Source of the DNA: a virus
Reading direction: 5' to 3' (one strand)
Length of the DNA stretch: 64,000 bases
Virus record (IMG/VR): IMGVR_UViG_3300035698_011202
Coordinates: 1 to 64,000 of that record
How positions within the stretch are numbered: the first letter of the stretch is position 1; the number at the start of each line of letters is the position of its first letter. A model generated the notes under the pieces. The model did no database searches, had not been told where the DNA came from, and worked only from the letters and a program-made list of their open reading frames with translations. Both the position numbers and the translations under genes were made by a program. Positions 786 to 58,418 of the stretch are shown piece by piece.

Positions 786-1002
786 CAGGTTTTAGTCTCC
801 CGTTTTTAAGAATAGGTAAGTTAGGGCCATGTACTCGCTGTAACGCTTTACGTATTTTACGCAAAGCTGTGGTGCGGTTTACATCAAACATCTCAGCTAC
901 GGCTGTGTAACTTTCCGTTTGAATGTACTGGTTAAGATACAAGCGTTCTTCCATATCTGCTTTTGCAAACACAGCAGGGGTCATTAGTTTGGTTATACTC
1001 AT
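778..1002 (-). CDS. Small HTH DNA-binding protein
   Basis: SYTAVAEMFDVNRTTALRKIRKAL helix-turn-helix; starts at the TTGACGATG motif; overlaps the holin start. Confidence 0.6.
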   Translation of the reverse strand: MSITKLMTPAVFAKADMEERLYLNQYIQTESYTAVAEMFDVNRTTALRKIRKALQRVHGPNLPILKNGRLKPDE

Positions 1003-1014
1003 CGTCAATATTTC

Positions 1015-2259: not shown

Positions 2260-2316
2260 CGTTTAACAGGCATAGCCATCTCCATCACTCATCGTCAACC
2301 ACAGGAATTTTAAAAG

Positions 2317-15100: not shown

Positions 15101-15928
15101 CCTGTAGTCAGCATTCATCGTAGGTAGACCGTCAATCTGGTCACCAATCACACCTACCACATGCAACATCGCTGTACTTGGGTGATACTCGAAGCTAGGG
15201 GTGTCGTATTTTTTATCTGAAGCCCCATAGCTGCTCAACTTACGTGTAACCAGCTCGTACCCACGCCAAATTATCGTATCAAAGATGTCTTCATCATCAC
15301 TGTTAGTGTTTTTAGTCAGCGTAATTTCGTACTGGTCACCCGTATTTGAACGCACAGGTAACTCAAACTTTAGGCTTCGGGCAAAACCACTTTGAGGGGT
15401 TTTACCTTTTATCCTAATCGCTTTAGTTTCAGAGTAACCACCACCAATTTTTGACAGCACCACCGTCAAAGTAACTTCGTGCTCTTTCACGCCGTCTTTT
15501 GAGTTGCGGTAAAGTGCTTGTGCAACTACCTGAACGTCAAGCTGGTCCCAACCATCAGGAATACTAGGCGTGGTTTTACTAATGGGCGCACCATGAACAA
15601 CTTCCTGACCTACCGTTTGATTTGAGGCGGTGCCGTCAAACAAATATCTAATCGGCGTTTGACCGTCTTCACTCTCAGCAGCGGTTAACGGAGTGCCTGA
15701 TTCAAAACGAATGAGTAGTTCACTTTCCTCAAAGTTAGGTTTGCCTTGGCTGTCAAAAATAGGTGTGTCATCAAGGTAGATGTGGTTTAGCTTTTCTTCC
15801 GCAGATTCACCCACAATGCCACCAATCTGTCCTTGAGCAATACCCATCACAAACTCGAAAGCGTCTGTAGAAAACAGATTGCTTCTAGCATTGCTTGGGC
15901 CGCCGCCTCCGCTGCCTTTAAATCTCAT
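12188..15928 (-). CDS. Tail tip / host specificity protein (lambda J-like)
   Basis: GLLCRVPSNYNP..TY....WDG, TDNPFW and RYTFN motifs, FN3-like domains; starts at TTGACGATG. Confidence 0.88.
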   Translation of the reverse strand: MRFKGSGGGGPSNARSNLFSTDAFEFVMGIAQGQIGGIVGESAEEKLNHIYLDDTPIFDSQGKPNFEESELLIRFESGTPLTAAESEDGQTPIRYLFDGTASNQTVGQEVVHGAPISKTTPSIPDGWDQLDVQVVAQALYRNSKDGVKEHEVTLTVVLSKIGGGYSETKAIRIKGKTPQSGFARSLKFELPVRSNTGDQYEITLTKNTNSDDEDIFDTIIWRGYELVTRKLSSYGASDKKYDTPSFEYHPSTAMLHVVGVIGDQIDGLPTMNADYRGLLCRVPSNYNPRTKTYDESSAWDGLYAPERFPTDNPFWIVNELILNEVFGVISYNPNVKVNKYSVYDKAKYADGYNAFSNAKDLQNPNTSETGVARYTFNAVLSDRMSGMEFINKILATTFSVILENDDGEIEILTDMPTVPVAFITAEMAVSTSSESPFSYSYSSTSARINAVSTSFIDKDSEYATQQLPEIRNQDAIDRHGLNVTEFVSLGTTNAWEAERKALVFLVAGQTETESINFVMPLSGVQFQVYDVVAIVDPVMGHGVSGRVVSNDTFSLTVRDPIYFAESGLYSLTLQGLTEDFDATITIKDTEVGLPLRKFTLSRPYPAASSLGDYPVVHIGNRARSDKQIGFPKLYRITSIEPTDDTGLELFSISAVEFNSEKHTEADLLKQATQPQYSFQLLAPLKRVTNLVVVNESIVDTLQGTQVSAWISWDEQEDRQFGTSYRVEVFSNGTSIGRVVNTAENFTEIKGLQFAEYEFRVTAERSGTKSAVTSLTYELGRVTAADLIEENALPLMYGSFKNGILKAYADINYVVGSVTSLPVALLTGGYLSSVTFSIFDDSDGNNTFLFNTVQTQPNLILTASQFKEASQQVFLPSKLIVRVAFHDFFDERYPALAVNDHILTIEAVQALITNVVVTEQTSAFGKYLITWTDDSANYEFTLLTLTGNILKKQTLTSAEVTLETLSAGTYTFTIQPVSSDLGYGKIFTQTLVVLQKDTSDVAPNTTSSNGTITVTPPVVESKFDTYEFKTSTSDNFEIAKPVGSNTSLSFGNVIKDQIYHVWYRLVTDNNRNTTWRLTSALGTEQILYTWTAYAEDAVGTNISTSAGELTWQGLSSGHTTAQAIITDASIYTWLPLTEGETIQMVLLSDNGNYFRNNTGALKSITANIFINGVAAYDTSEYKYKWTNEGRVVYVTTSGDYVSLSPSTNLFAADGEDPQGLNFKTIKVDFTDVANGADLNLTCTVTNI

Positions 15929-15955
15929 CGTCAATCCTCATTGTATTTTTACAGC

Positions 15956-17506: not shown

Positions 17507-17507
17507 A

Positions 17508-17996
17508 TTAGACTCTCACCGATGAAAACTCAGGCTGCGCGTATCGACGAGGTGGGAAAACAATTTGGTTTCCGTCACTCGGCATTCTTAGCTCAGCCGT
17601 TATCATATGCTCTGTAATATTCGTTACATGCGACACAATAAAGACTCGTCGAGTATAGGTGCCCAACGATAGTTCTTGAGGTAGCACTCGGTACTCAACA
17701 ACATCTGCGCCTTCTAGGATACGTCTTGACACGTAGTAGGATAGGGCACCATCTTGGTTAGGTAAGTTAAGTTTAGGGCGAGATACTTCACCTGAACTGT
17801 TTTGCTGAAAACCAGCAATAAGAAAAGGATTACTTGTCCACGTTTCACCTAGCCACGTTATAGTTGGACCATCGGTAAGGCGAAAATGAATAGGCGTAGA
17901 ATCTAAGTCTAGGATTTTTATATATAGGAATTTTATACGTTCAGAGGACGTAAGAGATTTAATCTCAGTGGTTAAACTGGGCGAAAGTGTTTTCAT
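17508..17996 (-). CDS. Minor tail protein (lambda L-like)
   Basis: W.G..W...PF...GF.....G..SRPKL pattern; position before K-like genes; starts at TTGACGATG. Confidence 0.7.
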   Translation of the reverse strand: MKTLSPSLTTEIKSLTSSERIKFLYIKILDLDSTPIHFRLTDGPTITWLGETWTSNPFLIAGFQQNSSGEVSRPKLNLPNQDGALSYYVSRRILEGADVVEYRVLPQELSLGTYTRRVFIVSHVTNITEHMITAELRMPSDGNQIVFPPRRYAQPEFSSVRV

Positions 17997-18042
17997 CGTC
18001 AACTCCAAATTTTATGCTTGGAGTTTAATACAAAGCGCAGAC

Positions 18043-18069
18043 AAAAAAAACCCCGCACTAGGCAGGGTT
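18043..18069 (-). terminator. Intrinsic terminator of the predicted sRNA
   Basis: AACCCTGC-CTAGT-GCGGGG followed by T8. Confidence 0.85.
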
Positions 18070-18118
18070 GATACTAAATTGACGATGAGAAATGGCATCT
18101 GGCGACGCCATCAAACGA
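18043..18118 (-). ncRNA. Predicted ~75-nt small RNA antisense to the TTGACGATG start-codon motif
   Basis: Sigma70-like promoter upstream, 5' hairpin AUGGCGUC-GCCA-GAUGCCAU, unpaired UUCUCAUCGUCAAUUUAGU, intrinsic terminator; both stems need G-U pairs that form only on the minus strand; 5' end approximate. Confidence 0.75.
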
Positions 18119-18123
18119 GATAA

Positions 18124-18151
18124 ATATTATCATAATGATAACGTGCGTCAA
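18124..18151 (-). promoter_or_regulatory. Sigma70-like promoter for the sRNA with an overlapping 7-1-7 palindrome
   Basis: TTGACG-16 bp-(TGn)TAATAT; TTATCAT-A-ATGATAA at 18127-18141. Confidence 0.6.
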
Positions 18152-24500: not shown

Positions 24501-24925
24501 ATCTTCCCTGTAATTTCACTCACCCCTTTAGTCAGACTATCCGTGTACCGTTTTACTAAAGCAGGGTCATTTAACTTGCTGGCTAAATTGCCTAAGTTTC
24601 CTATAATCCCTTGGGCTTCAGATTGCAGCGTAGCTACGCCGCCCCGAGAAATCGCCAATGCTCTGTTTAAAGGCGCAAGCTCTGCAGCATTCAAAGCATC
24701 AATAGGTTTTCGACTCTTAGCCGACATGCCGCTAGTCAGCTTTTCGTTAGCCTTAACGACATTATTTATGTCGGTCATAGATTGCTTGACAGTACCCATG
24801 CTTAGTTCAAGGGCTTTTTGTAGCTTCTCTAATTTTTTAGTCGCTTCGTCAACGGCTTTTTGACCGCTTTTATCAAATTTTACTTTTAATACGGTAGTAC
24901 GGATAGAACTGCTGTTATCACTCAT
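18566..24925 (-). CDS. Tail tape measure protein
   Basis: About 2119 aa helical protein with TP901-type core (TKFTALEV.QA...LGQAG; G..GS..GT.LR), C-terminal GG...DS..A....GEFVL; starts at TTGACGATG. Confidence 0.93.
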   Translation of the reverse strand: MSDNSSSIRTTVLKVKFDKSGQKAVDEATKKLEKLQKALELSMGTVKQSMTDINNVVKANEKLTSGMSAKSRKPIDALNAAELAPLNRALAISRGGVATLQSEAQGIIGNLGNLASKLNDPALVKRYTDSLTKGVSEITGKMVSSPAIKRAISQSTRSFLNEEIRRNPNLAKKESKFSDARTSAMSASDLKAQRQATAVYLKGATKANNAANNTGDTAFAKSSARLKGLFENQLAALDKETGSRKAFIAEQKRVFNSPEAKAKRKQDEKVRAANSTSITKTSAVRLAADINAREGKKRVVRGAARLDLGAKSPAELRRLSRDVSAYEKVVNAQVKNAPEGTQLRSQIDLRKQQISALKEGIVTQRESNAAAKVFYNSEPEKAKRKLSRANSSDLKQEVSARSKADSRVSEGARFARGLGDQSINMKSKGELTQIRNNLKEFARTVNQQVKNAPEGSDLRKQIDTQLASIRQSDKRVETQQQKNKAQIDASNSTQFKNDLKLQRDNNTTLLRETENRLAGDRFARAGKEGLNKSLVGLSSSELNELKKSAGDYANVVKGLIKSSSATSVVFDQATAELKRIERRLEQIKIKQNYRPAQTEIGRAQTSSARSLLAADERRRMDNGAGMFKQQAQLLRNYAVMGTGISLITQSGQFMVQLEKEMKQLQSIVALTNTEMQGLSKTLVAVSEKTKFTALEVTQAAVVLGQAGFGKDQIADSIEGITLFATAVGANLSEAVDLATSTMGIFNRDARDMGNIADKLTTAVNSSKLNLNKLALGLQYAGNIAAQSNVSFEETVAALGAMANSGIRSGSTLGTGLRQILIALQKPSEEFVRTTQLLGLSMSDLDISTNGLIPVLKKLSQSGFTVTDAMRTMQVRAAAAFGAFANNIDVADELAEKMEIGGAAARANAIQMESFANQFARLGSTFFSVTSEAFDPLLKSGTALVSTLADMLSGLKDVGGALSVIGSIAGGAAIGALVVSFGKLAIGLAAGGRAIAAILGIGSTVSGDGDRRPLNSNRLQRDNTRSSLNTARRAAMGTSALTVALRFLAGKVTLVLAAIGGLLGGIAYLADSFNDDAKLKDVVDKATAEENDAKSRQIASRDSIKALNKTLQNIATNEVKLSKDTDMLASTIKRVNSEFKALGLYIPDSVKDYKGLFDAVKTFKDEENASLDLALVDGGKASARTSNAIIQEQLPLKGENSAVAIFEKASRKLTGNTGERDRSERGPVGSGRIELGDFTTSLRDTSKIVTGLTQQYNQLAFTDKDGNVDKDKVAEGKSILDKILSVEGNLRDVFIREGNVQQYATETGLNGDVFKKYGKDFTDALQSIIFAISTSQTGFENNLTNSEANVINRRELTTLGDDAVTGGMLQLEQATKAFTSNISSVYQNVLKLDERDDLKAYTSMGENETTVLAELDRLTNNFKTTLRDRPLTGDELRKVLEAQNVDPLQIQNLLSNPELTSNQVREVLIQSGLDPKNNDNNKIIESTATGNGLSPQELQEAFVSTGFNEVVNAIILSLSVGFKNIATEAKFAKDLDFKNRGAILDAQMGTINKELSTSASAERLNVLADEKELLQAKISAIAREKEDFAGRLNDQGPQSKGVATRLTQQEAISSKAETQLIIDKNLFTQKFAKSLDGKNTNLDTKDRDYEETDGLRLIKSFTEAQESKIEKASELAKAEVIALKQTEEVFEARISELQKITTGGDKYTNQFKEASLEEQQLVTQQLIDKREERAKAEIDLTTEAIRARKVLIEYLESLVASNPDLAVDSGIDGSGLNKTIKEQIVKQAQAQKDLADDNKNQSDTNLDNKKTSDELGTIVRDLKANQFDDDVRRRLFAAMTGEGFNPLGDETTDTTYVPKNGQDTPEGILENVAGGFRGINDLLMQSLDNFDPLTEAMKGLNDVAQDLASNFAQAFTAFANGTLSGSEAFKAFTISILESMLDIASEIAANALLKGILQMVAGAGFGGMFSPTGTTMAGNPSTNMNGGMNAWNGGEQFAGSYAGGGEITRGMSTRDSTFAKVAKGEFVLRRKAVQSLGIDTVKALNSADPNLIDRQAEKLGGNPMAQQKDSGSKEVNVYVVSPEQMPSSLGANDVVHIIADNLTRGGVTKQLVKRINMGTL

Positions 24926-24941
24926 CGTCAATCTCCAAATT

Positions 24942-25316: not shown

Positions 25317-25603
25317 TACGATATATGGCTCTCTACCCAATCAAGAAAGTCGATCAAATGGTCCGTGTCTATTTCTAATTCATTAATAGCAAACTCTTCG
25401 GTTATTTTTCCATATTGGTCACGCTTAGATAGACACAATAAAAGTATGTCTAGTCGAACGGTAGCGTTGGTAAAGGTTTCTGAAATTTGTTGTGGGTTTT
25501 CGAATATGGCACTTAATGTGTTGAGCAATCCAAAAGACATAAACAGTTCTTTTTGTGTATCACCACAGGTCAAAGTAAAGCGAGGGGCTAGTTTATCAGT
25601 CAT
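25241..25603 (-). CDS. Tail assembly chaperone (G-like)
   Basis: Position after major tail protein; starts at TTGACGATG. Confidence 0.75.
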   Translation of the reverse strand: MTDKLAPRFTLTCGDTQKELFMSFGLLNTLSAIFENPQQISETFTNATVRLDILLLCLSKRDQYGKITEEFAINELEIDTDHLIDFLDWVESHISYFFLRAWEKSIASSIKRTEAIKKSI

Positions 25604-25625
25604 CGTCAATCCAAATTATAAGTAT

Positions 25626-25671: not shown

Positions 25672-26505
25672 TTACACAATAGGTGCAGTAACCGTGTCAG
25701 TTAGTAACTCAGCTACTTTGTTCTTGAACTGAGCATAGAACGGGTCACCGCTAATAGGCTTCATAGGCATAAATTCGAACGGGACGTTACCGAAGTTATC
25801 AGTTGTAAACGACATAGTTAATCCTGAACTCACACGAATTTTAGGAATTAACAATACGATGAACTGTCCATCAGCCAACTGACCCTGCACTTTAGCAGAG
25901 TAATAACGGTCAGTATCGGTAGAACCAATATCTAATACGTTAACCAGTGACACGCGAGTACCTGCAGCAAAGCTACTTACTGAAACAACATCTGGCATAG
26001 AAACCGTCATGGTTGCGCTTGTAGAAGTGTTGCCAGAAATACCAGAAACAGCCGTAGCTGTACCCGCAACAATCTTATCCGTAGAAGGGTCACGCAATAA
26101 TACGCGGCTACCAAGGGTAATGTTCTGAATGTCAGCGGCATCTTCAAACGAAAGGTCTACTGAGCCAGCTGAGAATGATGCTGTCCCTGAAGTTTCCAAC
26201 GCTTTTTGAGGGGCTGAAATTAAGCCTGAGCCTTCTAATCCTAACGCATACGCTAAGTTCTGAGTAGTATACTCGTACATTTCAAAAGAACCCCGAGTCG
26301 TTTGACCCGTAGTTAATGAAACGATAATGTCGTTGGTACGACCTTGTGTTAGCTCGGTTTGGTCTTTAGTTGCTTCAATACTGAAGTTTTTTACCAAGCC
26401 TACGCCATGCTGCACAGGGTTTAAATTATACACGTCTTCTGGGTTGCCGATCATTACTTCGGCAGTACCCAACATGAATTTCTGTGATTTAGCATTTCCG
26501 CTCAT
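25672..26505 (-). CDS. Major tail (tube) protein
   Basis: Size, position before chaperones, followed by a terminator; starts at TTGACGATG. Confidence 0.82.
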   Translation of the reverse strand: MSGNAKSQKFMLGTAEVMIGNPEDVYNLNPVQHGVGLVKNFSIEATKDQTELTQGRTNDIIVSLTTGQTTRGSFEMYEYTTQNLAYALGLEGSGLISAPQKALETSGTASFSAGSVDLSFEDAADIQNITLGSRVLLRDPSTDKIVAGTATAVSGISGNTSTSATMTVSMPDVVSVSSFAAGTRVSLVNVLDIGSTDTDRYYSAKVQGQLADGQFIVLLIPKIRVSSGLTMSFTTDNFGNVPFEFMPMKPISGDPFYAQFKNKVAELLTDTVTAPIV

Positions 26506-26570
26506 CGTCAATCTCCAAATTTTGATTTAGTTAGGTTATAATCAATACCTCAACAAAGGAGCGAAAGACG

Positions 26571-29778: not shown

Positions 29779-30990
29779 TTACGCTAAGGTGTTAAAAATT
29801 GTGCGCGTATCGCCGTACACTAAACGGTAACCAGTATTAATGGTTCTTACGTAAGTGATAGACTGGTTTTTGATAGCTTCTTCAGATTCATTAACTACTG
29901 AACCTGTTTCAACTAGCTCTTCTAACGTGTCACCTTGAGAGTAACAAATTAGCTGACCGGCTGGCGCAGAGCTTGATATACGAATAGACACGCCATTCAT
30001 AAAGTCCAAGTTCATTGAAAAGCTAGGCATACCACGGCCCTGAAGCGTTTCAGCATCAGAACTTTGATTGCCATTGTTCGGTAAGAACATTAGGAACAAT
30101 TCTAAAAACATAGAATAGTTACATACGATGGTATCAACCGGCACCATGTCGCGGGCGCGTTGAGTCAAGAAGTCAGCTAAAGCAACATAGTTGTCTTTTA
30201 GGGACTTGGCACCTGAAACATCCCAATTCTTATAACCAGAAGCAGCTTTAACAGTCGCAGCTGCATGAACACCATCACCACTAACTAACAAGTTAGTTGC
30301 TTGACGAACTTTACCGATTTCCATGTTACGAACAATACGAGCAACATAGGGCGTTAGTATGTCTAAGCTTGCACGACGTTCAAATTCGTATGAAGTACGA
30401 ATACCAGAACCATGCTTGAAGAACTTAACGCGACGGTCACTAGACGTAATTGTCTGCATTGGGATGTTCGCTAGTTCTGCGATAGGTGACGTATTAAGGT
30501 TACCTGCATCGTCAAAAATAGCTTCCGTGATAATCTCGTTACCTGTAACTGTACGGGTCTGAGAAACCATACCAGTAGTGCTTTCAAACTGGTCTAAACG
30601 ATTGGTGAACTGCATCATGTCATCAATAGTTTCTGGGAAAAGCGCACGAACTCCTGGACGGGTTGCAAACGTATCTGCAGCAGCTTGAAGGGTCACACCA
30701 GATTTAAAGTCATTTTTAAATGGTAAGTTAAGCTCAGAAAGAGCAGCTTCATAACCTGTTAAAAATTGACCGTTGGCCCCTACGAAGCGGTTGTGCTTGT
30801 TCTCGTCAACTGAGCTTGCAACGTCAATCGAAAGAGTAAGGAAGTCACGGATACTTAGTCCAAATTGCTTTGCCTGTGAGCAAAGTTTAAGACCCGCATT
30901 TTTAGAAACTTCTTGTCTGTCATCAGCTAAACCAGCAAGTACTTCGTTTACTGTTCCGCGTTTGACCTGAGTTAAAGGTGTTAAATTCAT
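29779..30990 (-). CDS. Major capsid protein (HK97-fold expected)
   Basis: About 403 aa, after protease and decoration genes, IAELANIP and KHGSGIRTSYE E-loop/backbone pattern, terminator downstream. Confidence 0.85.
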   Translation of the reverse strand: MNLTPLTQVKRGTVNEVLAGLADDRQEVSKNAGLKLCSQAKQFGLSIRDFLTLSIDVASSVDENKHNRFVGANGQFLTGYEAALSELNLPFKNDFKSGVTLQAAADTFATRPGVRALFPETIDDMMQFTNRLDQFESTTGMVSQTRTVTGNEIITEAIFDDAGNLNTSPIAELANIPMQTITSSDRRVKFFKHGSGIRTSYEFERRASLDILTPYVARIVRNMEIGKVRQATNLLVSGDGVHAAATVKAASGYKNWDVSGAKSLKDNYVALADFLTQRARDMVPVDTIVCNYSMFLELFLMFLPNNGNQSSDAETLQGRGMPSFSMNLDFMNGVSIRISSSAPAGQLICYSQGDTLEELVETGSVVNESEEAIKNQSITYVRTINTGYRLVYGDTRTIFNTLA

Positions 30991-31017
30991 CGTCAATCTC
31001 CAAATTTTAAATTGTTC

Positions 31018-39420: not shown

Positions 39421-39521
39421 GACGGTGAGTTCAGAACATAGTAAAAAAAAGACGATGAGTTCAGAACGCAGTAAAAAAATGACGATGAGTTCAAAACGCA
39501 GTAAAAAAATGACGATGAGTT
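39421..39521 (+). repeat. 30-bp tandem repeat (3 full units plus a partial) carrying GACGATGAGT
   Basis: GAC(G)RTGAGTTCARAACRYAGTAAAAAAAW units seen directly. Confidence 0.95.
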
Positions 39522-41576: not shown

Positions 41577-41624
41577 TTTAATTAACTAACAGTGCGGACT
41601 CCGCACTAACAATTGGAATTGACG

Positions 41625-41807
41625 ATGGAAACAATAGTATTAGTAATACTTGTACTAATCACCTTTTGGCTTGCCCTAATGGTCATTAAAATTACCCTTA
41701 ACGCTGCTTTATCGTACAAAAAACGGGTCACAATTCGCAGAAAGATGTTCATAGCGCGAAAAAAAGCGCGTGAAAAATATTTTAAGCACCTGTTTTTGCG
41801 CGATTAA
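41625..41807 (+). CDS. Small membrane protein
   Basis: N-terminal TM helix, basic tail; starts at TTGACGATG. Confidence 0.65.
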   Translation: METIVLVILVLITFWLALMVIKITLNAALSYKKRVTIRRKMFIARKKAREKYFKHLFLRD

Positions 41808-42185: not shown

Positions 42186-42728
42186 CTTTGCGGGCTAGGG
42201 TAAATTAGTAGGTTAGTAGCCACTATCGCTTTATGCCGTCATATGTCGGGTCTTGAGAAGAATAAAGTGTACAGAATCAAAAATAGCAGACATTTTTCTT
42301 ATTAAAAACATTATGTATTAATTAGAAATATGAGTGTGATCTAAAAAAGAGCCATCAAAAAAAGAGCCTACAATTTAGTTCCTAAGCGTGACCGCACGAA
42401 AGTCCTCAGGCGACATCCGACAGCTAAGAGTCCAAACGCGCCAACGTCATTGCTGGGCGATTTGACTTTTGCTCCTGTATCGCTCGGTGTTGATATATAA
42501 TTTTATAGATATACCAATGCTTAGGTTGATGCTCGAACGTGTCACCTTGCTATGTTTGCTTTCGTATTTCGGGTATTGTGTCTGCTTAGTTTGCCCGTAG
42601 GGTATGAAGGTATTAAAAAGCTTGCAATATATTATTCTTTGATCGAATAATACTCACAGTAAATCGGGGATTAAGACCTGATTACTATTTTATAGATGGG
42701 GACTCCCCACTAACAATTGGAATTGACG

Positions 42729-43259
42729 ATGACAAACACGACATTTGTATGCTCTCAACGAGCGACGCAGAAAGAGATTTCTGAGATTCGCCTTCAAGTA
42801 TTCACATTGGGTAATCGCCTAAATAATTATCGCATAAATAATGCGGTGCGAGTTCGTGCTGCGTTGGGCGATTTGTTGCTTGCCTCCATACGCCGTGAGG
42901 CTGAGCTGACGGCGTTATTATCCTTCCTTAATACGACGTGTCGTATTCTCAATAAAAAGCCCATAACACCTCACTGTGAGGTTATTACAAGCGATTTAGA
43001 CGATGCGGTGGGTAACATCATTGGATTTAAGAACGATGGCAAGGGTTTCGCCATCATTCCTACATTTAGGGAGTTGGGCGCGGTGTTTGTTCCGACTCAA
43101 TATAAAGTGACGTTGTTGCGTAACACTGATTTCGAAAAGCTTTACATTGTAATGCTAAACGACGAGCTAAAGGCTGACTTTCTAGGCCGCCAGCAGCTTG
43201 TTCAAGAGCATAACGCCCTAGTATTGAGGCATACCCACCTTATGTGCCTCTTAGCTTAA
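42729..43259 (+). CDS. Hypothetical protein
   Basis: Starts at TTGACGATG after palindrome. Confidence 0.7.
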   Translation: MTNTTFVCSQRATQKEISEIRLQVFTLGNRLNNYRINNAVRVRAALGDLLLASIRREAELTALLSFLNTTCRILNKKPITPHCEVITSDLDDAVGNIIGFKNDGKGFAIIPTFRELGAVFVPTQYKVTLLRNTDFEKLYIVMLNDELKADFLGRQQLVQEHNALVLRHTHLMCLLA

Positions 43260-43427
43260 CAGCGAGCGAGTGGGGAGTCCCCACTCAAAACTTAAATTAA
43301 CTTGAAAATTGGAAATTGACGATGAAAAATACTTCGGTATCAAATCTAACCTGTCCTCAGGTGTTCAACTAATGGCGGTCGCTACGTTCGACACTCAGCG
43401 AGAATTAGCTTCTTGGGTGAATAGTTT

Positions 43428-43796: not shown

Positions 43797-43815
43797 AATC
43801 GGTGGGGACTCCCCA

Positions 43816-43990
43816 CCAATAAAACGGTGTGACACCTGTAAAATTGATGACCAATAAAACGGTGTGACACCTGTAAAATTGACGATGAGAAAACAGTGTG
43901 ACACCTAATAGTGTGACACCTATCAAATTGACGATGTGAACAAACAGCAAGGTTTTTGCCTTGCACTCCAATTAAATTGACGAAGAGATA
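43816..43990 (+). repeat. Composite repeat region: 35-bp duplication, four GTGTGACAC palindromes, several AAATTGACGATG copies
   Basis: Seen directly. Confidence 0.9.
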
Positions 43991-45697: not shown

Positions 45698-45708
45698 GAA
45701 AATTGACG

Positions 45709-47211
45709 ATGAGTTATACAAGTAAGACCTTTAACCAATTACAGGCTTCAGTTTTGAAGTCTATGGATGATTTAAATCTAGCACCTATAGAAATACTTTC
45801 GTTGACGAAGAACGCAGCTATGAATGCTGCCCAGCGTTACGCAGAAAAGTATTTGGAGGTATCGCTACGTCAAGGCGATCCTTCTCAGATGAAGCGGCTC
45901 CGAGCGTTTATGGATTCAGCTGGAAACTGTTGTTATGACTTCAATATAGTGGGGAGTCCCCACTCAGAAGAGGATGGTGAGTATCGGTTCACTTATAGCG
46001 TTGATTTTGACCGTCAGGACGGCCTGTACCTGCAAAAACGCTCAAAGCGAGGTGTCAGCCTTGGTCGAGTACTTGGTGACTTTGACGACGGCCTGATGCT
46101 CAATCTTCAATTCGATGGCGATACGTATATTCGCAGCTATCACGAGGTAGAAGCATTAAAAACTGAGGGTATGCCCCAAAGCGAGTTGATCAAGTACTTT
46201 GTCAACAAATTCAAAGCACAATCAAAAAATGCTTTTGTGTATTTCACAGACGTTAACATCGACCAACATTACAAATCTTTGTCTCAAGTGCGTGACTTAG
46301 ATACCTGTTTGAGTCGTAAAAACTCACACTACCATCGCAAGGTCAATGGCACCTATTACCACCCATTGCGAACATTAAACAAGTCGCCAAATGTCCGATT
46401 GGCTTTACTATCCAACACTCATCACAGCGAGTGGGAGGACGGCCAGTACCCCTTTGTGGGTCGTTGTTTAGTCAAGATGGACGAGCTAGGTAAGGTCACG
46501 GGTCTATCTCGTTACTATGGTCACGAAAAGTTCAGTCGTGATTCGCTAAGTCAAGCGTTTAACACTAGAGAAGGAGTGCAAGGCGGGGTATTTAAGGCGG
46601 TATATGATGACGAAAACGAATTGATTTTGTTTTTTGCTGACCAACTAACCTCAGATTCTGAAGAGAAAAATGCGGTTTCGTGGATAGATAATCCTAGTCC
46701 TAGATGGTTCGATATTCATGTAGGCCGCGAGTTTTCGTCCCTCAAGAATCGCAAAGATTTACTGGTAATGGGTAATACCAATCGCAGTTTTGGGGTCACG
46801 CCCAGCTTCGATGGCAGGGAAGTGACTACTTGTAGCAATGCTAAGTATGTGCGTAACGACAGACCTAAGCCCGATAAGTATAGCGACTACGTTTATAGCC
46901 TTGAGTATGGCGTAATCAGGGCCAGTAACTACGATTTGACGTTCAATATTGCGCTAAACGACTTTGTAGTAGACGGCGACATACTACACCGCTCAAATAC
47001 GGGGGATGGCATTACGCATTATCACGTAGAGAAAAACTTGTACGTACAAACTATCTTTCACGATTGGGTGTTACGTGACGAAGTGATACTTTTCTTTGTC
47101 GCATATAGCAGTTGCTATGTCCCGATAGATAATGACCTTGGCATCATATACGGTCAAGAAATGGGCACACGAGAACTTGAAGAATTAATAGCTGACACGA
47201 TTGCAGCATAG
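45709..47211 (+). CDS. Paralog of the upstream SCM-motif protein
   Basis: DTCLSR...HP...SPN...GR...YYGHE...FFAD aligns with upstream ORF; starts at TTGACGATG. Confidence 0.75.
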   Translation: MSYTSKTFNQLQASVLKSMDDLNLAPIEILSLTKNAAMNAAQRYAEKYLEVSLRQGDPSQMKRLRAFMDSAGNCCYDFNIVGSPHSEEDGEYRFTYSVDFDRQDGLYLQKRSKRGVSLGRVLGDFDDGLMLNLQFDGDTYIRSYHEVEALKTEGMPQSELIKYFVNKFKAQSKNAFVYFTDVNIDQHYKSLSQVRDLDTCLSRKNSHYHRKVNGTYYHPLRTLNKSPNVRLALLSNTHHSEWEDGQYPFVGRCLVKMDELGKVTGLSRYYGHEKFSRDSLSQAFNTREGVQGGVFKAVYDDENELILFFADQLTSDSEEKNAVSWIDNPSPRWFDIHVGREFSSLKNRKDLLVMGNTNRSFGVTPSFDGREVTTCSNAKYVRNDRPKPDKYSDYVYSLEYGVIRASNYDLTFNIALNDFVVDGDILHRSNTGDGITHYHVEKNLYVQTIFHDWVLRDEVILFFVAYSSCYVPIDNDLGIIYGQEMGTRELEELIADTIAA

Positions 47212-47222
47212 GAAAATTGACG

Positions 47223-48602
47223 ATGACATTTAAAACAGAATTAAAATTGATTGCTAACGAATCCAAGGTATTTCACAACACGGACGCTTTTTTACCCAGT
47301 GTGATATTGCCACAGATATGCCGCCATATCCGAGGCCATAACAGTGTTGGCGAAAAGAATTTCCTTAAAAACTGGCTTGAGCCAGCGTTCAAGAAGCTTG
47401 GCCTTGAGTTCACCAACGATGCCTTTGGTAACTATTACGTGCAAATAAAAGGCCCGCAAATGGAGCGAGTGCTGCACGTAGGCCACTTAGATACGGTCAG
47501 TAGTGCCAGTAATCTCAAGAAATACCAGAAAGTAATTATCGACAAAGATAACTTTATGACGCTAGACCATGCTCACTATGCAAGTCTCAAAGGGGCTGAT
47601 GCTTCTATGGGTGTGCTTGGCGCTGATGACGGCTCGGCTATCGCTGTAATGTTGTATTTGATGGCTAACGGAGTATCGGGCTGTTTTTTACTAACCAAAG
47701 CAGAAGAAATTGGATGCCTTGGTGCAAACTACATCGTAAAAAATCACCCTGAGTTCTTAGAAAAGTTCGATATTGCGCTAGAAGTTGACCGAGCAGACAC
47801 CTTCGAGCTTATCGCTGAGCAAAGTACAGGTAAGTGCGCCAGCCGTGGATTTACAAAAACACTAGCGGATGCAATCGGCATGAAGCACGAGCATTCGGAT
47901 GGAGGAATTATTACTGACCTTGGGAATTTTAATAACCTAATCAAAGAGGGAATTAACATAGCCGCTGGCTATTTATTTCAGCATTCCAGTGATGAGATTC
48001 AAGACATGCTTTACATTGAGATATTAGCTAAGCAGATGGCTAAGCTAGATTATGGCTCGTTGGTTGTATCCCGAAAAGTCACTGATTTAGGTGACACAGG
48101 TTGGGGTAACTATGGGGGTTATGGTGGTGGTTACAGTCGCTCCAAAAGCAGCTCAGGATTACACAAAAACTCTGGGTACAGGTACGACGATTATGAAGAT
48201 TACGATTACGATGGTTTTTTCTCTTCTAAACAGAAAAGCAAGACTGAGGATGTTAAAGGTATTTGCCCTGCGTTGCTGCAAAAAGACCCTGCGTTAGAAA
48301 CAGGGTTGAGCATAGATGACTTGACTTATGACGAGAAAACCGACCTGTACCAGAACCTTTCAGATTCTGATTGGTATTTTATGCTCAACGCTGATGCGAG
48401 GCGCGAGCTGATGCGTTTCGAATATCCAATTATAACGGGTGTTACGTGTGACAAATTACCCTATGCCGAACTCGTTGACTTTATTGCGTCAGACCCAGAG
48501 GCATTTGCTAACTATTTCATAGACCAAAAGCTCGACCTAGCGGTAGTTGGCGCGGATGATTATTTGCAAGATATTAACGATATATACGAAGGAAAATTAT
48601 AA
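47223..48602 (+). CDS. Zn-dependent peptidase, M28/M20-like
   Basis: HLDTV, LGADD, EEIG, EVDR, GY..QHS..E metal ligands; starts at TTGACGATG. Confidence 0.85.
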   Translation: MTFKTELKLIANESKVFHNTDAFLPSVILPQICRHIRGHNSVGEKNFLKNWLEPAFKKLGLEFTNDAFGNYYVQIKGPQMERVLHVGHLDTVSSASNLKKYQKVIIDKDNFMTLDHAHYASLKGADASMGVLGADDGSAIAVMLYLMANGVSGCFLLTKAEEIGCLGANYIVKNHPEFLEKFDIALEVDRADTFELIAEQSTGKCASRGFTKTLADAIGMKHEHSDGGIITDLGNFNNLIKEGINIAAGYLFQHSSDEIQDMLYIEILAKQMAKLDYGSLVVSRKVTDLGDTGWGNYGGYGGGYSRSKSSSGLHKNSGYRYDDYEDYDYDGFFSSKQKSKTEDVKGICPALLQKDPALETGLSIDDLTYDEKTDLYQNLSDSDWYFMLNADARRELMRFEYPIITGVTCDKLPYAELVDFIASDPEAFANYFIDQKLDLAVVGADDYLQDINDIYEGKL

Positions 48603-48850: not shown

Positions 48851-48897
48851 TTAACTAACTGAGTGGGGAGTCCCCACTCAAAAACTAGGAATTGACG

Positions 48898-49149
48898 ATG
48901 AAACTAAATCACACCACTCCTGCTGTTGGTAGAAAATCCACGCGTGAAAATAAAGGTAGCACTCAGCTTTTTTTAGTGTTGTTTACTAATTTTAATGGGA
49001 TGAAAACCCAAGAAATTGTCAAAGCTTTTAGTTTTGACGAGCTACATTCTTGGATTGAGAAGTTCAAAGCGGATTATGGCCCCCGTATGACTCATAGTAT
49101 CCAACATATTAACAAAGCGCGTATAGCTGACAAAATAAATATTGCTTAA
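48898..49149 (+). CDS. Hypothetical protein
   Basis: Starts at TTGACGATG after palindrome. Confidence 0.65.
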   Translation: MKLNHTTPAVGRKSTRENKGSTQLFLVLFTNFNGMKTQEIVKAFSFDELHSWIEKFKADYGPRMTHSIQHINKARIADKINIA

Positions 49150-49180
49150 ATTAACACCACTCAAAAACTAGGAATTGACG

Positions 49181-49684
49181 ATGACATTAGCAGAACAAAT
49201 ATTAGATAGACTTTTCTCTTTAGACGAGCAGCAAAAGCAAATCCTCGAATTAATTAAGAACTTACCAGCGTCTAGGGACGCTGCATTTGAAGCTGAATTA
49301 CAAGCGATAGTCGAGCCTACGGTTTTACCGCTTATTGAGTTACCTGTGACGTTGCATGAAGCACCTGTGGCTCTTAAAAACTCCCGGCTACTTTTGAGCG
49401 ACATGACTAAAGGCACTAACGCCGCACTTGGCTTGCGATTGCTAAAAAAACACCCTGAAGTATTGGGTAGGATTATAAGGTTGCGTAGAGAAGGCTACTT
49501 GAACGATGACGTCTTTGAGTTTCTTAGCTCTGATTTTATAAATATTCACAAGGAATATCATATTGGAGCCATTATCACAGCGGCAACTCAGGTCAGGTTC
49601 ATGGTAGGACAGACCAAAAACCTAAAAGCCACGGCTGCTTATAGGCGCTTCATCAAAGATTGTGAAGCGGGTATTAAAGTATGA
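49181..49684 (+). CDS. Hypothetical protein
   Basis: Starts at TTGACGATG. Confidence 0.65.
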   Translation: MTLAEQILDRLFSLDEQQKQILELIKNLPASRDAAFEAELQAIVEPTVLPLIELPVTLHEAPVALKNSRLLLSDMTKGTNAALGLRLLKKHPEVLGRIIRLRREGYLNDDVFEFLSSDFINIHKEYHIGAIITAATQVRFMVGQTKNLKATAAYRRFIKDCEAGIKV

Positions 49685-51157: not shown

Positions 51158-51184
51158 CTCACCCAAAACAACTTGGAATTGACG

Positions 51185-51679
51185 ATGACTTTTTATACAA
51201 AAGACGAACTGTATTGTAAATATGTAGAACTTATCCCTTCAGAAGAAGTGCATAACACGTTTATGCCTCTAATGGAAAAGTACCCTCGACTAATAGGACT
51301 GGACATGAAGACTTGTAATCTCATGGACCAGTTTCGTGACGACAAAAACCCTTCTGGCTATGGCATGGCAGATTGCTATTTGGTTGGTCGTAGCGAAGAG
51401 CAAAAAACAATGTTGTTTGTGTTTGGCTCCAAGACTGAAATAGTTGACGTAAGTGTCGCGTCTAACTATTTTCAAGGGTCTATGAGTGTGGCGGCATTAA
51501 GTGTGGCGTGTCAGATTTTGTGGCACAATCATCTGGCGGCATTTGCAGATTCTATGGGACAACATCTGCTTTCTTCTTGGGCAGCAGATATGTATTATGC
51601 TCTTAAAGATGTTGTTTACCTTGAAGCTCTAGGCTTATCAGACAACGACAGGTCAGCTATTGCTGGCTTCTTAGATTAA
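51185..51679 (+). CDS. Hypothetical protein, weak resemblance to ArdB/KlcA antirestriction fold
   Basis: YFQGSMSVAALSVACQIL...YYALKD...DRSAIAGFLD resembles the ArdB-type C-terminus; starts at TTGACGATG. Confidence 0.5.
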   Translation: MTFYTKDELYCKYVELIPSEEVHNTFMPLMEKYPRLIGLDMKTCNLMDQFRDDKNPSGYGMADCYLVGRSEEQKTMLFVFGSKTEIVDVSVASNYFQGSMSVAALSVACQILWHNHLAAFADSMGQHLLSSWAADMYYALKDVVYLEALGLSDNDRSAIAGFLD

Positions 51680-51695
51680 AAAATTGGAATTGACG

Positions 51696-51848
51696 ATGAA
51701 ACAATCATATGTATGGGTGCCCTCAAAAAACTTCTCTTCATTACTTAGCCTTTGTATCTATTCGATACCGCTGGGCGAGTACATTTTACGCCGTGAAGCT
51801 GTCGTAGACGAAACAGGTCAAGTGACACTAGCGGAGGATTTCGCATGA
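51696..51848 (+). CDS. 50-aa hypothetical protein (not in ORF track)
   Basis: Starts at TTGACGATG; ATGA overlap with next ORF. Confidence 0.65.
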   Translation: MKQSYVWVPSKNFSSLLSLCIYSIPLGEYILRREAVVDETGQVTLAEDFA

Positions 51849-52208: not shown

Positions 52209-52254
52209 CGTTAAGCGTATTATTTTAGTAATTAACTACAATTAGGAATTGACG

Positions 52255-54610: not shown

Positions 54611-54625
54611 AATTTGGAATTGACG

Positions 54626-58401: not shown

Positions 58402-58418
58402 GACTACGGAAATTGACG

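What the first reader, a model, noticed from the sequence alone, without database searches (positions are those of the whole stretch)
18043..18151. Candidate master antisense sRNA complementary to the start codons of more than 20 phage genes
Seen: the gap between the M-like and L-like tail genes holds, on the minus strand, a sigma70-like promoter (TTGACG-16-TAATAT), a hairpin (AUGGCGUC-GCCA-GAUGCCAU), an unpaired stretch 5'-UUCUCAUCGUCAAUUUAGU-3' and an intrinsic terminator with U8. The unpaired stretch is the reverse complement of the TTGACGATG(AG) motif found on gene starts across the prophage. It is the only copy I found oriented against local transcription. Perfect matches reach 17 nt at the 52249 and 43879 sites, 16 nt at 63139 and 13 nt at the J-like gene. 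Both stems rely on G-U pairs that form only on the minus strand. Some target variation also fits G-U wobble: purines opposite the UUU (AAA, GAA, AGA, GGA), TGGCGATG at terL and GACGGTG at 39421. Established: phage antisense immunity RNAs (P1/P7 C4, P4 CI, P22 sar) act on one or a few targets, and an exposed seed plus polyU terminator is typical of Hfq-type sRNAs. Inference: one RNA blocks translation initiation of replication, head, tail and lysis genes together, acting as an RNA-based lysogeny or immunity switch with targets built into the genome. I do not know of a described system at this scale.
Basis: partly seen in the sequence, partly recalled or inferred. Interest (0 to 1): 0.97.

Follow-up and report, generated by a model that had tools for sequence, protein, structure and literature searches.

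The report
Anti-start-site small RNA in temperate phages
A small RNA gene between two tail genes of a temperate phage carries the complement of the ribosome-binding/start motif shared by about 25-30 of the phage's own genes, and in seven related phage lineages the RNA and the motif have changed together, which points to an undescribed phage-wide RNA control of translation.

Summary
TTGACGATG occurs 26 times in the window against 0.41 expected. Only the copy at 18079-18087 is inverted. It lies in the unpaired linker of a minus-strand unit with a promoter-like site, a 5' hairpin and a U8 terminator.

The same unit fills the same tail-gene gap in 12 of 36 related loci and in Pseudoalteromonas phage KB12-38, making 8 sequence lineages. 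Each lineage has its own start motif, and the linker always carries that lineage's complement. The neighbouring gene's start is never the best match, which argues for action in trans.

Five whole relatives without the gap have no such motif. A FinO/ProQ-domain gene is present in 7 of 7 large element-bearing records and in 0 of 5 gap-less ones. These phages carry integrases, or IMG/VR classes them as proviruses.

My best reading (about 0.6) is a FinP/FinO-like trans-acting antisense RNA that occludes the shared start sites. Expression, the sign of regulation and a role in lysogeny are untested. First-stage notes of this scan proposed the same idea for this genome. I found no paper describing it.

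The parts
18146..18151 (-). -35-like hexamer TTGACG of the sRNA unit
   Evidence: The top-scoring sigma70-like site lies 25-39 nt upstream of the seed core in 9 of 10 gap sequences of relatives.
18124..18129 (-). -10-like hexamer TAATAT preceded by TG, 16-nt spacer
   Evidence: 9 of 12 matches, TG_before_second yes
18043..18117 (-). predicted transcript of about 75 nt; the start is inferred as 7 nt after the -10 and the end as the end of the U-run
   Evidence: Inferred only; no RNA data.
18092..18111 (-). 5' hairpin AUGGCGUC-GCCA-GAUGCCAU
   Evidence: In the 76%-identical relative G003 the sequence differs but a 9-pair hairpin sits at the same place.
18070..18091 (-). unpaired linker (seed) UUCUCAUCGUCAAUUUAGUAUC, the complement of the shared start motif
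   Evidence: mean unpaired probability 0.94
18043..18069 (-). intrinsic terminator: 8-pair stem, 5-nt loop, U-run
17994..18007 (-). start site of the next gene (M-like minor tail protein), GGAGTTGACGATG; 10 nt complementary to the seed
1000..1008 (-). start-motif copy
2290..2298 (-). start-motif copy
15926..15934 (-). start-motif copy at the J-like 1248-aa tail gene; 13 nt match the seed
24923..24931 (-). start-motif copy at the tape-measure gene (2121 aa)
25601..25609 (-). start-motif copy
26503..26511 (-). start-motif copy
30988..30996 (-). start-motif copy at the major capsid gene
30507..30515 (-). motif copy inside the capsid ORF; not a gene start and no GGA before it
41619..41627 (+). start-motif copy
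42723..42731 (+). start-motif copy
43316..43324 (+). start-motif copy
43815..43990 (+). non-coding repeat region holding motif copies at 43879 (17 nt match the seed) and 43928, and a variant at 43977, interleaved with GTGTGACACC repeats; possible decoy or origin-like array
45703..45711 (+). start-motif copy
47217..47225 (+). start-motif copy (M28 peptidase-like gene)
48892..48900 (+). start-motif copy
49175..49183 (+). start-motif copy
51179..51187 (+). start-motif copy
51690..51698 (+). start-motif copy
52249..52257 (+). start-motif copy; 17 nt match the seed
54620..54628 (+). start-motif copy
58413..58421 (+). start-motif copy (5'-3' exonuclease gene)
59267..59275 (+). start-motif copy (PolA-like gene, 963 aa)
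63139..63147 (+). start-motif copy (MazG/PRA-PH-like gene); 16 nt match the seed
39421..39521 (+). 30-nt tandem array with four partial motif copies (GACGRTGAGTT), followed by a terminator-like hairpin near 39585-39619; possible decoy, function open
   Evidence: Arrays of 3 or more copies were found only in this phage.

Best explanation
The gap 18009-18176 holds a separately transcribed minus-strand RNA gene of about 75 nt. It has the layout of a moron: its own sigma70-type promoter and its own terminator inside the late operon. The RNA consists of a 5' hairpin, a 22-nt single-stranded linker and a terminator hairpin.

The linker pairs with the stretch from the Shine-Dalgarno sequence to the start codon. 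This phage lineage has made that stretch nearly uniform on about 25-30 of its genes in both arms: replication, capsid, tape measure and tail tip. Pairing over 9-17 nt that covers the SD and the AUG should block binding of the 30S subunit, so one RNA would lower translation of the whole set.

The phage encodes its own FinO/ProQ-domain RNA chaperone (record positions 67344-67835, outside the window). This family binds terminator hairpins of antisense RNAs and speeds their pairing with ribosome-binding sites, as FinO does for FinP and traJ. The gene's own start site carries only a degenerate motif.

The phages carry integrases or are classed as proviruses by IMG/VR, and the unit looks constitutive. 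I therefore infer that the RNA is made in the lysogen, where it would silence leaky lytic-gene translation and block superinfecting phages with the same motif. On that view the motif and seed variants would mark specificity groups.

Shown: the anatomy, its recurrence in relatives, the seed/motif covariation, and the co-occurrence with the motif and with FinO/ProQ. Inferred: transcription, repression, use of the chaperone, and the role in lysogeny.
For: (1) Anatomy and strand specificity.

(2) Recurrence. A gap of 125-216 nt at the same junction is present in 11 of 36 related loci, plus L023, which is identical to L022 over this stretch. The other 24 have abutting or overlapping genes. KB12-38 has a 167-nt gap. 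JWF has none and Lumi has 44 bp.

(3) Every gap has the same order of parts: promoter-like site, anti-motif stretch, hairpin. The top sigma70-like hit lies 25-39 nt upstream of the seed core in 9 of 10 gap sequences, and G003 scores only 7 of 12. Hairpin and terminator sequences differ between lineages while the stems are kept.

(4) Covariation. The most over-represented 8-mers and start-linked 7-mers are TTGACGATG (own), TCGACGATG (G001), GGAAATTGACGAT (G009, G011), GGATTGACGATATG (G002), GGATTGACA (KB12-38) and CATTAGGATTAACAAACAT (G012). Each linker is the complement of its own genome's version. Sites with at least 11 contiguous Watson-Crick pairs, own genome: 29, 11, 24, 15, 39 and 36. Off-diagonal cells are 0-10, except that the own and G003 seeds match G011, which shares AAATTGACGATG.

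(5) Trans rather than cis. The adjacent gene's start is never the best match. Own: 10 nt, with 27 sites longer. G012: 9 nt, with 36 longer. KB12-38: 9 nt, with 16 longer. G011: 13 nt, with 13 longer. G001: 10 nt, with 9 longer. G002: 15 nt, with 2 longer.

(6) Phyletic link. Whole gap-less relatives G004-G008 show no extended start motif: their top start-linked 7-mers occur 7-11 times and are AT-rich or plain SD, against 19-36 in four element-bearing whole records and 11 of 64 ORFs in the 45%-complete G001.

(7) FinO/ProQ (PF04352) scores above the cut-off in 7 of 7 element-bearing records of 72 kb or more, and in 0 of 5 gap-less records.

(8) Temperate lifestyle. Integrase is present in G000, G002 and KB12-38. 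IMG/VR classes G009, G010 and G012 as proviruses.

(9) Not coding. The plus-strand micro-ORFs differ in length and sequence (read by eye). A 1-nt indel between KB12-38 and G002 inside the conserved stretch shifts the minus-strand frame.
Against: There is no expression evidence of any kind.

In this window the promoter-like site is no better than chance sites. It is weak in G003 (7 of 12) and in G002 (8 of 12).

The hairpin in G001 is followed by no U-run.

In KB12-38 and G012 the predicted 5' hairpin covers part of the seed, giving a mean unpaired probability of 0.40.

Covariation of the inverted copy with the other copies would also arise if all copies were read by one protein.

The wobble test cannot decide. 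Five of 6 informative columns fit G-U-aware pairing, but only one of them separates the models, and one column goes against it.

Late genes carry the motif as well, and late-operon read-through should produce RNA carrying the anti-motif. How lytic growth would escape repression is therefore unexplained.

G012 and G011 have HTH_3 genes, so protein repressors probably exist too.

MAFFT/RNAalifold gave no consensus structure across all 8 lineages.
Confidence: 0.6

Rival explanations
1. The RNA is the same and the pairing is the same, but the sign or purpose differs. It might activate or time expression rather than silence it. For example, it could guide RNase III or RNase E processing at each start site of the polycistronic mRNAs, protect their 5' regions, or set a threshold during lytic growth as a 3'-end product of the upstream late transcript.
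For: The unit lies in the sense direction of the late operon, so every late transcript that stops at its terminator would carry the seed. Duplexes reach 20-21 bp in G012, which is long enough for RNase III. About 30 sites have kept the motif and changed it in concert, which is easier to explain if the motif benefits each gene.
Against: Pairing that covers the SD and the AUG normally blocks initiation (established knowledge of antisense control). The unit has its own promoter-like site, and the phages are temperate. Both fit expression outside the late programme.
Confidence: 0.12
2. A cis-acting element of the tail operon. In read-through transcripts the anti-motif pairs with the start site of the next gene (the M-like minor tail protein, 75-100 nt downstream). 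Together with the terminator this lowers expression of the distal tail genes.
For: The next gene's start carries the motif in every lineage, with 9-15 nt complementary to the linker. The element lies in the sense direction of the operon. A second promoter-like TATACT follows the hairpin in G001, G009-G011 and G013, which could be a restart point.
Against: The neighbour is never the best match; 2 to 36 other sites per genome match longer. The linker follows the genome-wide consensus, including flanks that the neighbour lacks. An upstream promoter-like site recurs. A terminator between the two pairing partners would separate them in most transcripts. Relatives without the gap manage the same gene junction with overlapping genes.
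Confidence: 0.1
3. The motif is the binding site of a phage protein, either on DNA (like the stoperators of Cluster A mycobacteriophages) or on mRNA (like T4 RegA). The inverted copy is one more site, for instance an operator or a decoy, and it covaries because all copies track that protein.
For: Any shared reader, protein or RNA, would produce the covariation seen. The non-coding copies at 43879, 43928 and 39421-39521 show that the motif is not only a start signal. The wobble test does not separate the models.
Against: The motif sits on the mRNA-sense strand at fixed or near-fixed distance from start codons and includes the SD. A DNA site does not need this. An mRNA-binding protein would not read the inverted copy unless the plus strand were transcribed. 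A promoter, one site and a terminator with no gene between them make sense only if the RNA is the product. The minus-strand-specific structure and the co-occurring RNA chaperone point to RNA-RNA pairing.
Confidence: 0.1
4. The inverted copy is a real plus-strand start site for a tiny ORF (12 codons here), or the remnant of a lost gene, and the minus-strand features are coincidental.
For: On the plus strand the layout, a hairpin followed about 11 nt later by TTGACGATG, resembles several early-arm start sites. An ATG-led micro-ORF follows the motif in the lineages I read.
Against: The micro-ORFs differ in length (about 5 to more than 20 codons) and share no sequence; this was read by eye. Own and G003 differ in that stretch in a way that keeps the minus-strand hairpin, not the peptide. 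The plus strand folds no better than shuffles. No plus-strand promoter was listed there.
Confidence: 0.03

Closest known systems
FinP antisense RNA with FinO (F-like plasmids), and the FopA/Inc pair of pCol1B9
   Same: A short two-hairpin RNA with a single-stranded spacer and a terminator, encoded on a mobile element. That element also encodes a FinO-domain chaperone, and the RNA pairs with a ribosome-binding site (passages of review PMC9977716). Here the FinO-domain gene scores above the Pfam cut-off, and the complementarity covers the SD and the AUG.
   Different: FinP is transcribed opposite its single target (traJ) and is fully complementary to it. Here the RNA is encoded away from its presumed targets, matches them over 9-21 nt, and has about 25-36 candidate targets per genome. 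Binding by the phage protein is untested.
Start-associated sequences (SAS) of Cluster K mycobacteriophages
   Same: A conserved asymmetric motif that includes the SD core, lies a few nt before the start codons of 13-19 genes and points in one direction. Its function is unknown. Pope et al. [quoted passage not shown] The function was still called unknown in 2024 and 2025 (passages of PMC11373665 and PMC12699233). In Anaya I located that reverse copy in a 385-bp non-coding gap between gp96 and gp97, where sense-direction RNA would carry the anti-SAS.
   Different: There is no sequence relation and the host phylum differs. SAS are limited to the non-structural arm, whereas here both arms carry the motif. 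In the passages I read, no antisense RNA, covariation or chaperone is described for SAS. I did not test the Anaya gap for a promoter or a terminator.
Phage immunity and exclusion antisense RNAs: P1/P7 c4, P4 CI, P22 sar (recalled, not read here) and BTP1 STnc6030 (PMC7067206, passages)
   Same: These are RNAs made by temperate phages that pair with the phage's own mRNAs and block the same or close phages. STnc6030 also lies within late genes, is highly expressed in the lysogen and excludes BTP1 but not P22. In P1/P7, specificity differences lie in the pairing bases (recalled).
   Different: Those RNAs act on one or two sites. STnc6030 is a cis-encoded antisense RNA of about 500-786 nt. Here a short RNA faces a motif repeated on dozens of genes, and motif and seed have co-diversified across lineages.
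Multi-target trans-acting sRNAs with a conserved seed (Hfq- or ProQ-dependent, e.g. RaiZ; PMC5391140 seen in listing only)
   Same: Own promoter, accessible seed, intrinsic terminator, and pairing at translation initiation regions.
   Different: In those regulons the targets share only loose complementarity that arose gene by gene. Here the target site is a near-identical 9-22-nt block that doubles as the genes' ribosome-binding site. No Rfam family reaches its threshold.
Stoperators of Cluster A mycobacteriophages (named in a passage of PMC3203893; details recalled)
   Same: Many copies of a 13-bp asymmetric site in short intergenic regions, oriented with transcription, that silence the genome in the lysogen.
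   Different: Stoperators are DNA sites for the repressor and are not tied to start codons. Here the motif includes the SD and lies at fixed or near-fixed distance from the ATG, and the odd copy sits inside an RNA-gene-like unit.

Membership tests
FinP/FinO-type antisense system | A FinO/ProQ-domain protein is encoded by the same element | tested here: met
   PF04352: 40.1-40.5 bits against a cut-off of 27, at record positions 67344-67835. Also met in G002, KB12-38 and G009-G012.
FinP/FinO-type antisense system | An RNA of about 80 nt with two stem-loops, a single-stranded spacer and a 3' tail | tested here: met
   Predicted folds. Clear in own, G003, G009 and G011; the 5' stem is weaker or overlaps the seed in G001, G002, KB12-38 and G012.
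FinP/FinO-type antisense system | The RNA is transcribed opposite its single target and is fully complementary to its 5' UTR | tested here: not met
   The unit is encoded in a tail-gene gap and matches many distant start sites over 9-21 nt.
FinP/FinO-type antisense system | The chaperone binds the RNA and speeds duplex formation; translation of the target is repressed | not testable with these tools
   Needs binding and reporter assays.
   Own: 9 of 12 promoter match, seed unpaired probability 0.94, U8 tail. G001 has no U-run, and the U tails are interrupted in G009-G013 and KB12-38.
   The host is unknown. The phage brings a FinO-domain protein instead.
Any Rfam family | Score at or above the family's gathering threshold | tested here: not met
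   Five sub-threshold matches. The best is Trp_leader at 28.5 bits against 41.
Start-associated sequences (Cluster K mycobacteriophages) | Asymmetric conserved motif including the SD core, within a few nt of the start codons of many genes, in one orientation, with a single reversed copy | tested here: met
   own; relatives. Definition taken from passages of PMC3203893.
Start-associated sequences (Cluster K mycobacteriophages) | The consensus GGGATAGGAGCCC, restricted to the non-structural arm | tested here: not met
   The sequence is different and both arms carry it. This is an analogue, not a member.
Stoperator-type repressor sites | Sites are bound by the phage repressor as DNA, and their position is independent of start codons | tested here: not met
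   The spacing to the ATG is fixed in own, G001 and G011 and is 1-9 nt in KB12-38, G002 and G012. Protein binding is not testable here.

The most novel reading that the evidence does not exclude
A lineage of temperate phages has rewritten the ribosome-binding sites of about 30 of its genes into one common address. A single phage sRNA reads that address with a phage-encoded FinO-family chaperone. Address and seed then diversify together (TTGACG, TCGACG, TTGACA, TTAACA versions), forming RNA-defined immunity or specificity groups, much as operator/repressor pairs do in lambdoid phages. The same logic, many start-linked copies plus one reversed copy in a non-coding gap, may explain the start-associated sequences of Cluster K mycobacteriophages, which have been unexplained since 2011.
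Probability: 0.3. Interest if true: 0.92.

Novelty: new variant of a known kind. Interest (0 to 1): 0.85.

Why it matters
If the RNA works as inferred, this is translational control of a whole phage genome by one small RNA, with the target sites built into the genes' own ribosome-binding sites. Known phage antisense RNAs act on one or two sites, so the scale is new. It would add an RNA layer to lysogeny and superinfection immunity. It would give a phage-encoded FinO-domain protein a defined RNA partner and target set. The lineage-specific seed/motif pairs would form a natural set of orthogonal RNA regulator/target pairs. It also offers a concrete, testable hypothesis for the start-associated sequences of mycobacteriophages. 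KB12-38 is a cultured phage-host pair, so the tests are ordinary bench work.

Tried and rejected
Rfam scan of 17000-19000 with permissive filters: nothing reached a gathering score.

blastn of the region against 50,697 phage records: no match.

Genome-contig scans with A2 and A4: no relatives found.

Metagenome-contig scan with A2: 3 loci. One is the same contig as L014. L019 (34% identity) and L020 (a fragment) were not inspected further.

RNA evidence: no RNA holder is listed among the 10 runs that hold the stretch; all are DNA contigs. This says nothing about expression.

Laying contigs of 4 DNA runs on 17700-18500: the 19 listed differences all lie in the flanking coding parts and none lies between 17983 and 18248. 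However, the most divergent contigs do not cover the gap, and the strain that spans it has only 5 differences in 801 nt. The power is too low to claim constraint.

RNAalifold on 8 units: MAFFT put the two subgroups out of register and no consensus structure came out. I used per-sequence folds instead. In that script the 3' ends were set by a simple T-run rule, which cut G002 short and ran G001 and G013 long.

Wobble test: inconclusive.

Search for a canonical repressor. No Peptidase_S24 in 5 records. HTH_3 only in G011 and G012. Pfam scans of 28 proteins of this phage gave HTH_17 (excisionase-like), integrase, ProQ, terminase and replication and repair domains, but no CI-like protein. These scans were not exhaustive.

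An 8-nt anti-motif 45 nt upstream of this phage's ProQ start is not present in the relatives, so I dropped it.

I considered whether the motif is a promoter, because TAAAAT/TACAAT often precedes GGA in this phage. I set this aside because that -10-like part is not kept in G012 or KB12-38, and because the motif tracks the start codon.

Claim that this is not in print: it rests on searches, and on passages read only.
Full report
WHAT IS THERE

The window is the first 64,000 bases of a 72,231-base IMG/VR virus record, estimated 89% complete. The structural genes run on the minus strand from about 36.4 kb down to 0.2 kb. The replication genes run on the plus strand from about 36.4 kb onward. The major capsid protein is 52% identical to that of Pseudoalteromonas phage KB12-38, and 45-49% identical to those of Achromobacter phage JWF, Caulobacter phage Seuss and Xylophilus phage Lumi.

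The finding lies in a gap of about 170 nt between a 129-aa gene just after the tape-measure gene (18177-18566) and the M-like minor tail gene (17508-17996). Read on the minus strand, the gap holds these parts in order:
- TTGACG, a 16-nt spacer and TAATAT with a TG before it (18151-18124).
- A hairpin of 8 pairs (18111-18092).
- An unpaired 22-nt stretch (18091-18070).
- A terminator of 8 pairs followed by a U-run (18069-18043).

The minus strand folds to -24.9 kcal/mol, with z -2.88 and 1 of 200 shuffles as good. The plus strand folds to -17.3 kcal/mol, with z -1.05 and 28 of 200. No Rfam family reaches its threshold.

THE MOTIF

TTGACGATG occurs 26 times against 0.41 expected. Twenty-five copies are on the coding strand of their arm, and only 18079-18087 is inverted.

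In context the motif is longer, roughly AAAATTTGGA(G/A)(A)TTGACGATGA. It therefore runs from a Shine-Dalgarno GGA(G), through a fixed 6-7-nt spacer, into the start codon and the next base. Most copies sit on start codons, including those of the capsid, tape-measure, J-like, 5'-3' exonuclease and PolA genes. Two copies (43879, 43928) lie in a non-coding repeat and one (30507-30515) lies inside the capsid ORF.

By a start-linked criterion, the 72-kb record has 29 TTGACG sites that open an ORF of at least 50 codons.

RELATIVES

KB12-38 has the same gene order and a 167-nt gap at the same junction. On the gene strand that gap reads TTGACT, 17 nt, TACTAT, then a stretch containing TGTCAATCC, then a long hairpin with a U-rich tail. 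KB12-38 has no TTGACGATG at all in its first 40 kb. Its start motif is GGATTGAC(A), with 34 GATTGAC sites and a spacer of 1-9 nt to the ATG. Its only copy inverted within the tail arm is the one in the gap.

Searches of IMG/VR with alignments of the two flanking proteins gave 36 loci with the M-like gene. Eleven have a gap of 125-216 nt. L023, which is cut off upstream, is identical to L022 over this stretch. The other 24 have abutting or overlapping genes (sequences read). JWF has no gap and Lumi has 44 bp.

The gap-bearing records fall into 8 sequence lineages:
- This phage, with a near-identical contig.
- G003, whose flanking protein is 76% identical.
- G001.
- G009/G010/G011/L077.
- G013.
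- G002/L023.
- KB12-38.
- G012.

SAME ARCHITECTURE

In 9 of 10 gap sequences the best sigma70-like match (8-10 of 12) lies 25-39 nt upstream of the anti-motif core. Examples are TTGACA-17-TAGTAT in G009 and TTGACT-17-TAATAT in G012. G003 has only 7 of 12. In this window the site alone is not above chance, but its recurrence at one position, in sequence that otherwise differs, is hard to put down to chance.

Downstream of the anti-motif there is always a G+C-rich hairpin. Its sequence differs between lineages. A U-run follows in all lineages except G001. Between this phage and G003 the 5' hairpin has a different sequence but is kept, while the linker and the terminator are nearly identical.

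Predicted unpaired probabilities of the anti-motif stretch:

| Lineage | Mean unpaired probability |
|---|---|
| own | 0.94 |
| G003 | 0.90 |
| G009, G011 | 0.76 |
| G002 | 0.75 |
| G013 | 0.59 |
| G001 | 0.52 |
| KB12-38, G012 | 0.40 |

In KB12-38 and G012 the 5' stem overlaps the seed. A joint RNAalifold run failed because the alignment was out of register.

COVARIATION

I fetched the whole records and derived each phage's own motif from k-mer counts and from 7-mers linked to candidate starts.

| Lineage | Start motif | ORFs with the top start-linked 7-mer |
|---|---|---|
| own | (GGAR)ATTGACGATGA | 26 of 160 |
| G001 | GGAATCGACGATGA | 11 of 64 |
| G009, G011 | GGAAATTGACGATG | 33 of 227; 36 of 221 |
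| G002 | TTGGATTGACGATATG | 19 of 188 |
| KB12-38 | GGATTGACA | 29 of 186 |
| G012 | AACCATTAGGATTAACAAACATG | 33 of 388 |

The linker in each gap is the complement of that genome's version, including the TTGAC to TCGAC and TTGAC to TTAAC changes and the lineage-specific spacers.

Counting sites with at least 11 contiguous Watson-Crick pairs, each seed finds 29, 11, 24, 15, 39 and 36 sites in its own genome (own, G001, G002, KB12-38, G011, G012). In other genomes it finds 0-10. The exception is that the own and G003 seeds also match 33-35 sites in G011, whose motif shares AAATTGACGATG (an earlier 24-nt version is). These counts include the self locus.

CIS OR TRANS

The next gene's start site carries the motif in every lineage and could pair with the linker across the terminator. 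If that were the selected interaction, the neighbour should be among the best matches. It is not.

| Lineage | Neighbour match (nt) | Other sites with a longer match |
|---|---|---|
| own | 10 | 27 |
| G003 | 10 | 2 |
| G001 | 10 | 9 |
| G002 | 15 | 2 |
| KB12-38 | 9 | 16 |
| G011 | 13 | 13 |
| G012 | 9 | 36 (up to 21 nt) |

The inverted copy equals the genome-wide consensus over up to 20 nt. This favours action in trans.

PHYLETIC PATTERN

Five whole or large relatives without the gap (G004-G008, 59-100% complete) have no extended start motif. Their top start-linked 7-mers occur 7-11 times and are AT-rich or plain AAGGAGA. The 20-30-kb tail regions of 18 further loci show none either, but that test has low power, because G003's 14 kb shows only 3. 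So I found no relative that keeps the motif and lacks the unit.

A FinO/ProQ-domain gene (PF04352) scores above the cut-off in all 7 element-bearing records of 72 kb or more: G000, G002, KB12-38, G009, G010, G011 and G012. It is absent from the three fragments (G001, G003, G013; 13-45% complete) and from all 5 gap-less records. In this phage it lies at record positions 67344-67835, outside the window, between a Herpes_ori_bp-like helicase gene and a RecU-like gene. The start sites of these FinO-domain genes carry only degenerate versions of the motif, or none, in all six genomes read.

LIFESTYLE

A tyrosine integrase is present in G000 (cut by the contig end), G002 and KB12-38, and an HTH_17 excisionase-like gene sits next to it here. 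IMG/VR classes G009, G010 and G012 as proviruses. Of the gap-less records only G007 has an integrase.

No Peptidase_S24 repressor was found in 5 element-bearing records. HTH_3 genes are present in G011 and G012 only. The one in G012 lies divergently just before the early arm.

READING

The simplest account of a promoter, an anti-motif and a terminator with no ORF between them, kept at one junction in 8 lineages while the anti-motif tracks each genome's start motif, is an RNA gene whose product pairs with those start regions. Pairing over the SD and the AUG is the classical way to block initiation. The element carries a FinO-family chaperone, the protein class that serves FinP/traJ and Inc/repZ (passages of PMC9977716). 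The moron-like layout inside late genes of temperate phages recalls STnc6030 of prophage BTP1, an antisense RNA expressed in the lysogen that excludes the same phage (passages of PMC7067206).

I therefore take a trans-acting repressor of the motif-bearing genes as the best explanation (about 0.6). A role in lysogenic silencing and homo-immune exclusion is an inference on top of that (about 0.3-0.35).

Open problems: there is no expression data, late genes are targets too, and late read-through should make RNA carrying the seed, so the escape route during lytic growth is unknown.

Rivals are the same pairing with another outcome, such as processing or activation (0.12), a cis-acting attenuator of the next gene (0.10), a protein reader of all copies (0.10), and a plus-strand micro-ORF (0.03). 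The protein-reader rival is not excluded by covariation alone, and the G-U wobble test is inconclusive.

COMPARISON AND NOVELTY

The closest mechanistic relative is FinP/FinO. However, FinP's defining feature, transcription opposite a single fully complementary target, is not met. The closest descriptive relative is the start-associated sequence of Cluster K mycobacteriophages. [quoted passage not shown] Its function is unknown, and the authors left an RNA or protein reader open (passages of PMC3203893). It was still unexplained in 2024 and 2025. In Anaya that reversed copy lies in a 385-bp non-coding gap, where sense-direction RNA would carry the anti-SAS. I did not test that gap further.

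My literature searches listed no paper describing a phage sRNA aimed at a start motif shared by dozens of phage genes. First-stage notes of this scan had already proposed the sRNA, the start-motif set and the FinO-domain gene for this same genome. They are unchecked AI notes, not independent evidence. Here I tested the motif count, the FinO domain and the comparative predictions.

I class the finding as a new variant of a known kind: antisense RNA plus FinO-family chaperone, with a new target architecture and scale.

Noticed in passing
window 39421-39521 (unit about 39340-39620): A 30-nt tandem array (3.4 copies by TRF) holds four partial motif copies (GACGRTGAGTT) separated by A-runs. It sits in a non-coding region after TATAAT/TTGACA-like hexamers and before a terminator-like hairpin. 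One frame stays open through the repeats (about 33 codons, by eye). It could be a decoy for the sRNA, a set of iterons, or a repeat peptide. Arrays of 3 or more motif copies were not found in the relatives.
   Followed up: partly
window 43815-43990: A non-coding region upstream of the 567-aa gene has a 35-nt repeat and GTGTGACACC units interleaved with motif copies. One copy matches the sRNA linker over 17 nt and another is followed directly by a stop (ATGTGA). G002 (6781/6871), KB12-38 (41505/41558) and G012 (40081/40183) each have a non-start copy 50-100 nt before a start copy.
   Followed up: partly
window 41592-41606, 42696-42710, 48865-48880, 59240-59255 and others: GGGGACTCCCC-type hairpins (one copy reads GTGCGGACTCCGCAC) lie about 10-15 nt before many early-arm start motifs. 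KB12-38 has an analogous GGGGTAACGTTACCCC palindrome in 18-20 copies. Their function was not examined.
   Followed up: no
G000 67335-67380 (L096 4335-4380) and the FinO-domain genes of KB12-38, G002, G009, G011, G012: The start sites of the phage FinO/ProQ-domain genes carry only degenerate versions of the start motif, or none, in all six genomes read. This would let the chaperone escape the control it may serve.
   Followed up: partly
L095 9870-9882 (Mycobacterium phage Anaya, record 59870-59882): The single reverse-oriented start-associated sequence of Anaya lies in a 385-bp non-coding gap between gp96, which ends with a terminator-like hairpin, and gp97. RNA made in the direction of the genes would carry the anti-SAS. 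No promoter or terminator analysis was done.
   Followed up: partly
L074/L075/L076 about 9946-9975, L078, L021 (downstream of the unit's hairpin): A second promoter-like site with -10 TATACT lies between the unit's hairpin and the M-like gene in G009-G011, G013 and G001. It may be a restart promoter for the distal tail genes.
   Followed up: no
matrix: This phage's seed has at least 11-nt matches to 35 sites in G011, because the two motifs share AAATTGACGATG. G001, G012 and KB12-38 are nearly orthogonal to it. These are predicted cross-reacting and non-cross-reacting groups.
   Followed up: no
KB12-38 record 46448-55293 (L009): KB12-38 is annotated with DndB-like, PAPS-reductase-like and several methyltransferase genes in its early arm. 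This looks like a DNA-modification module unrelated to the finding.
   Followed up: no
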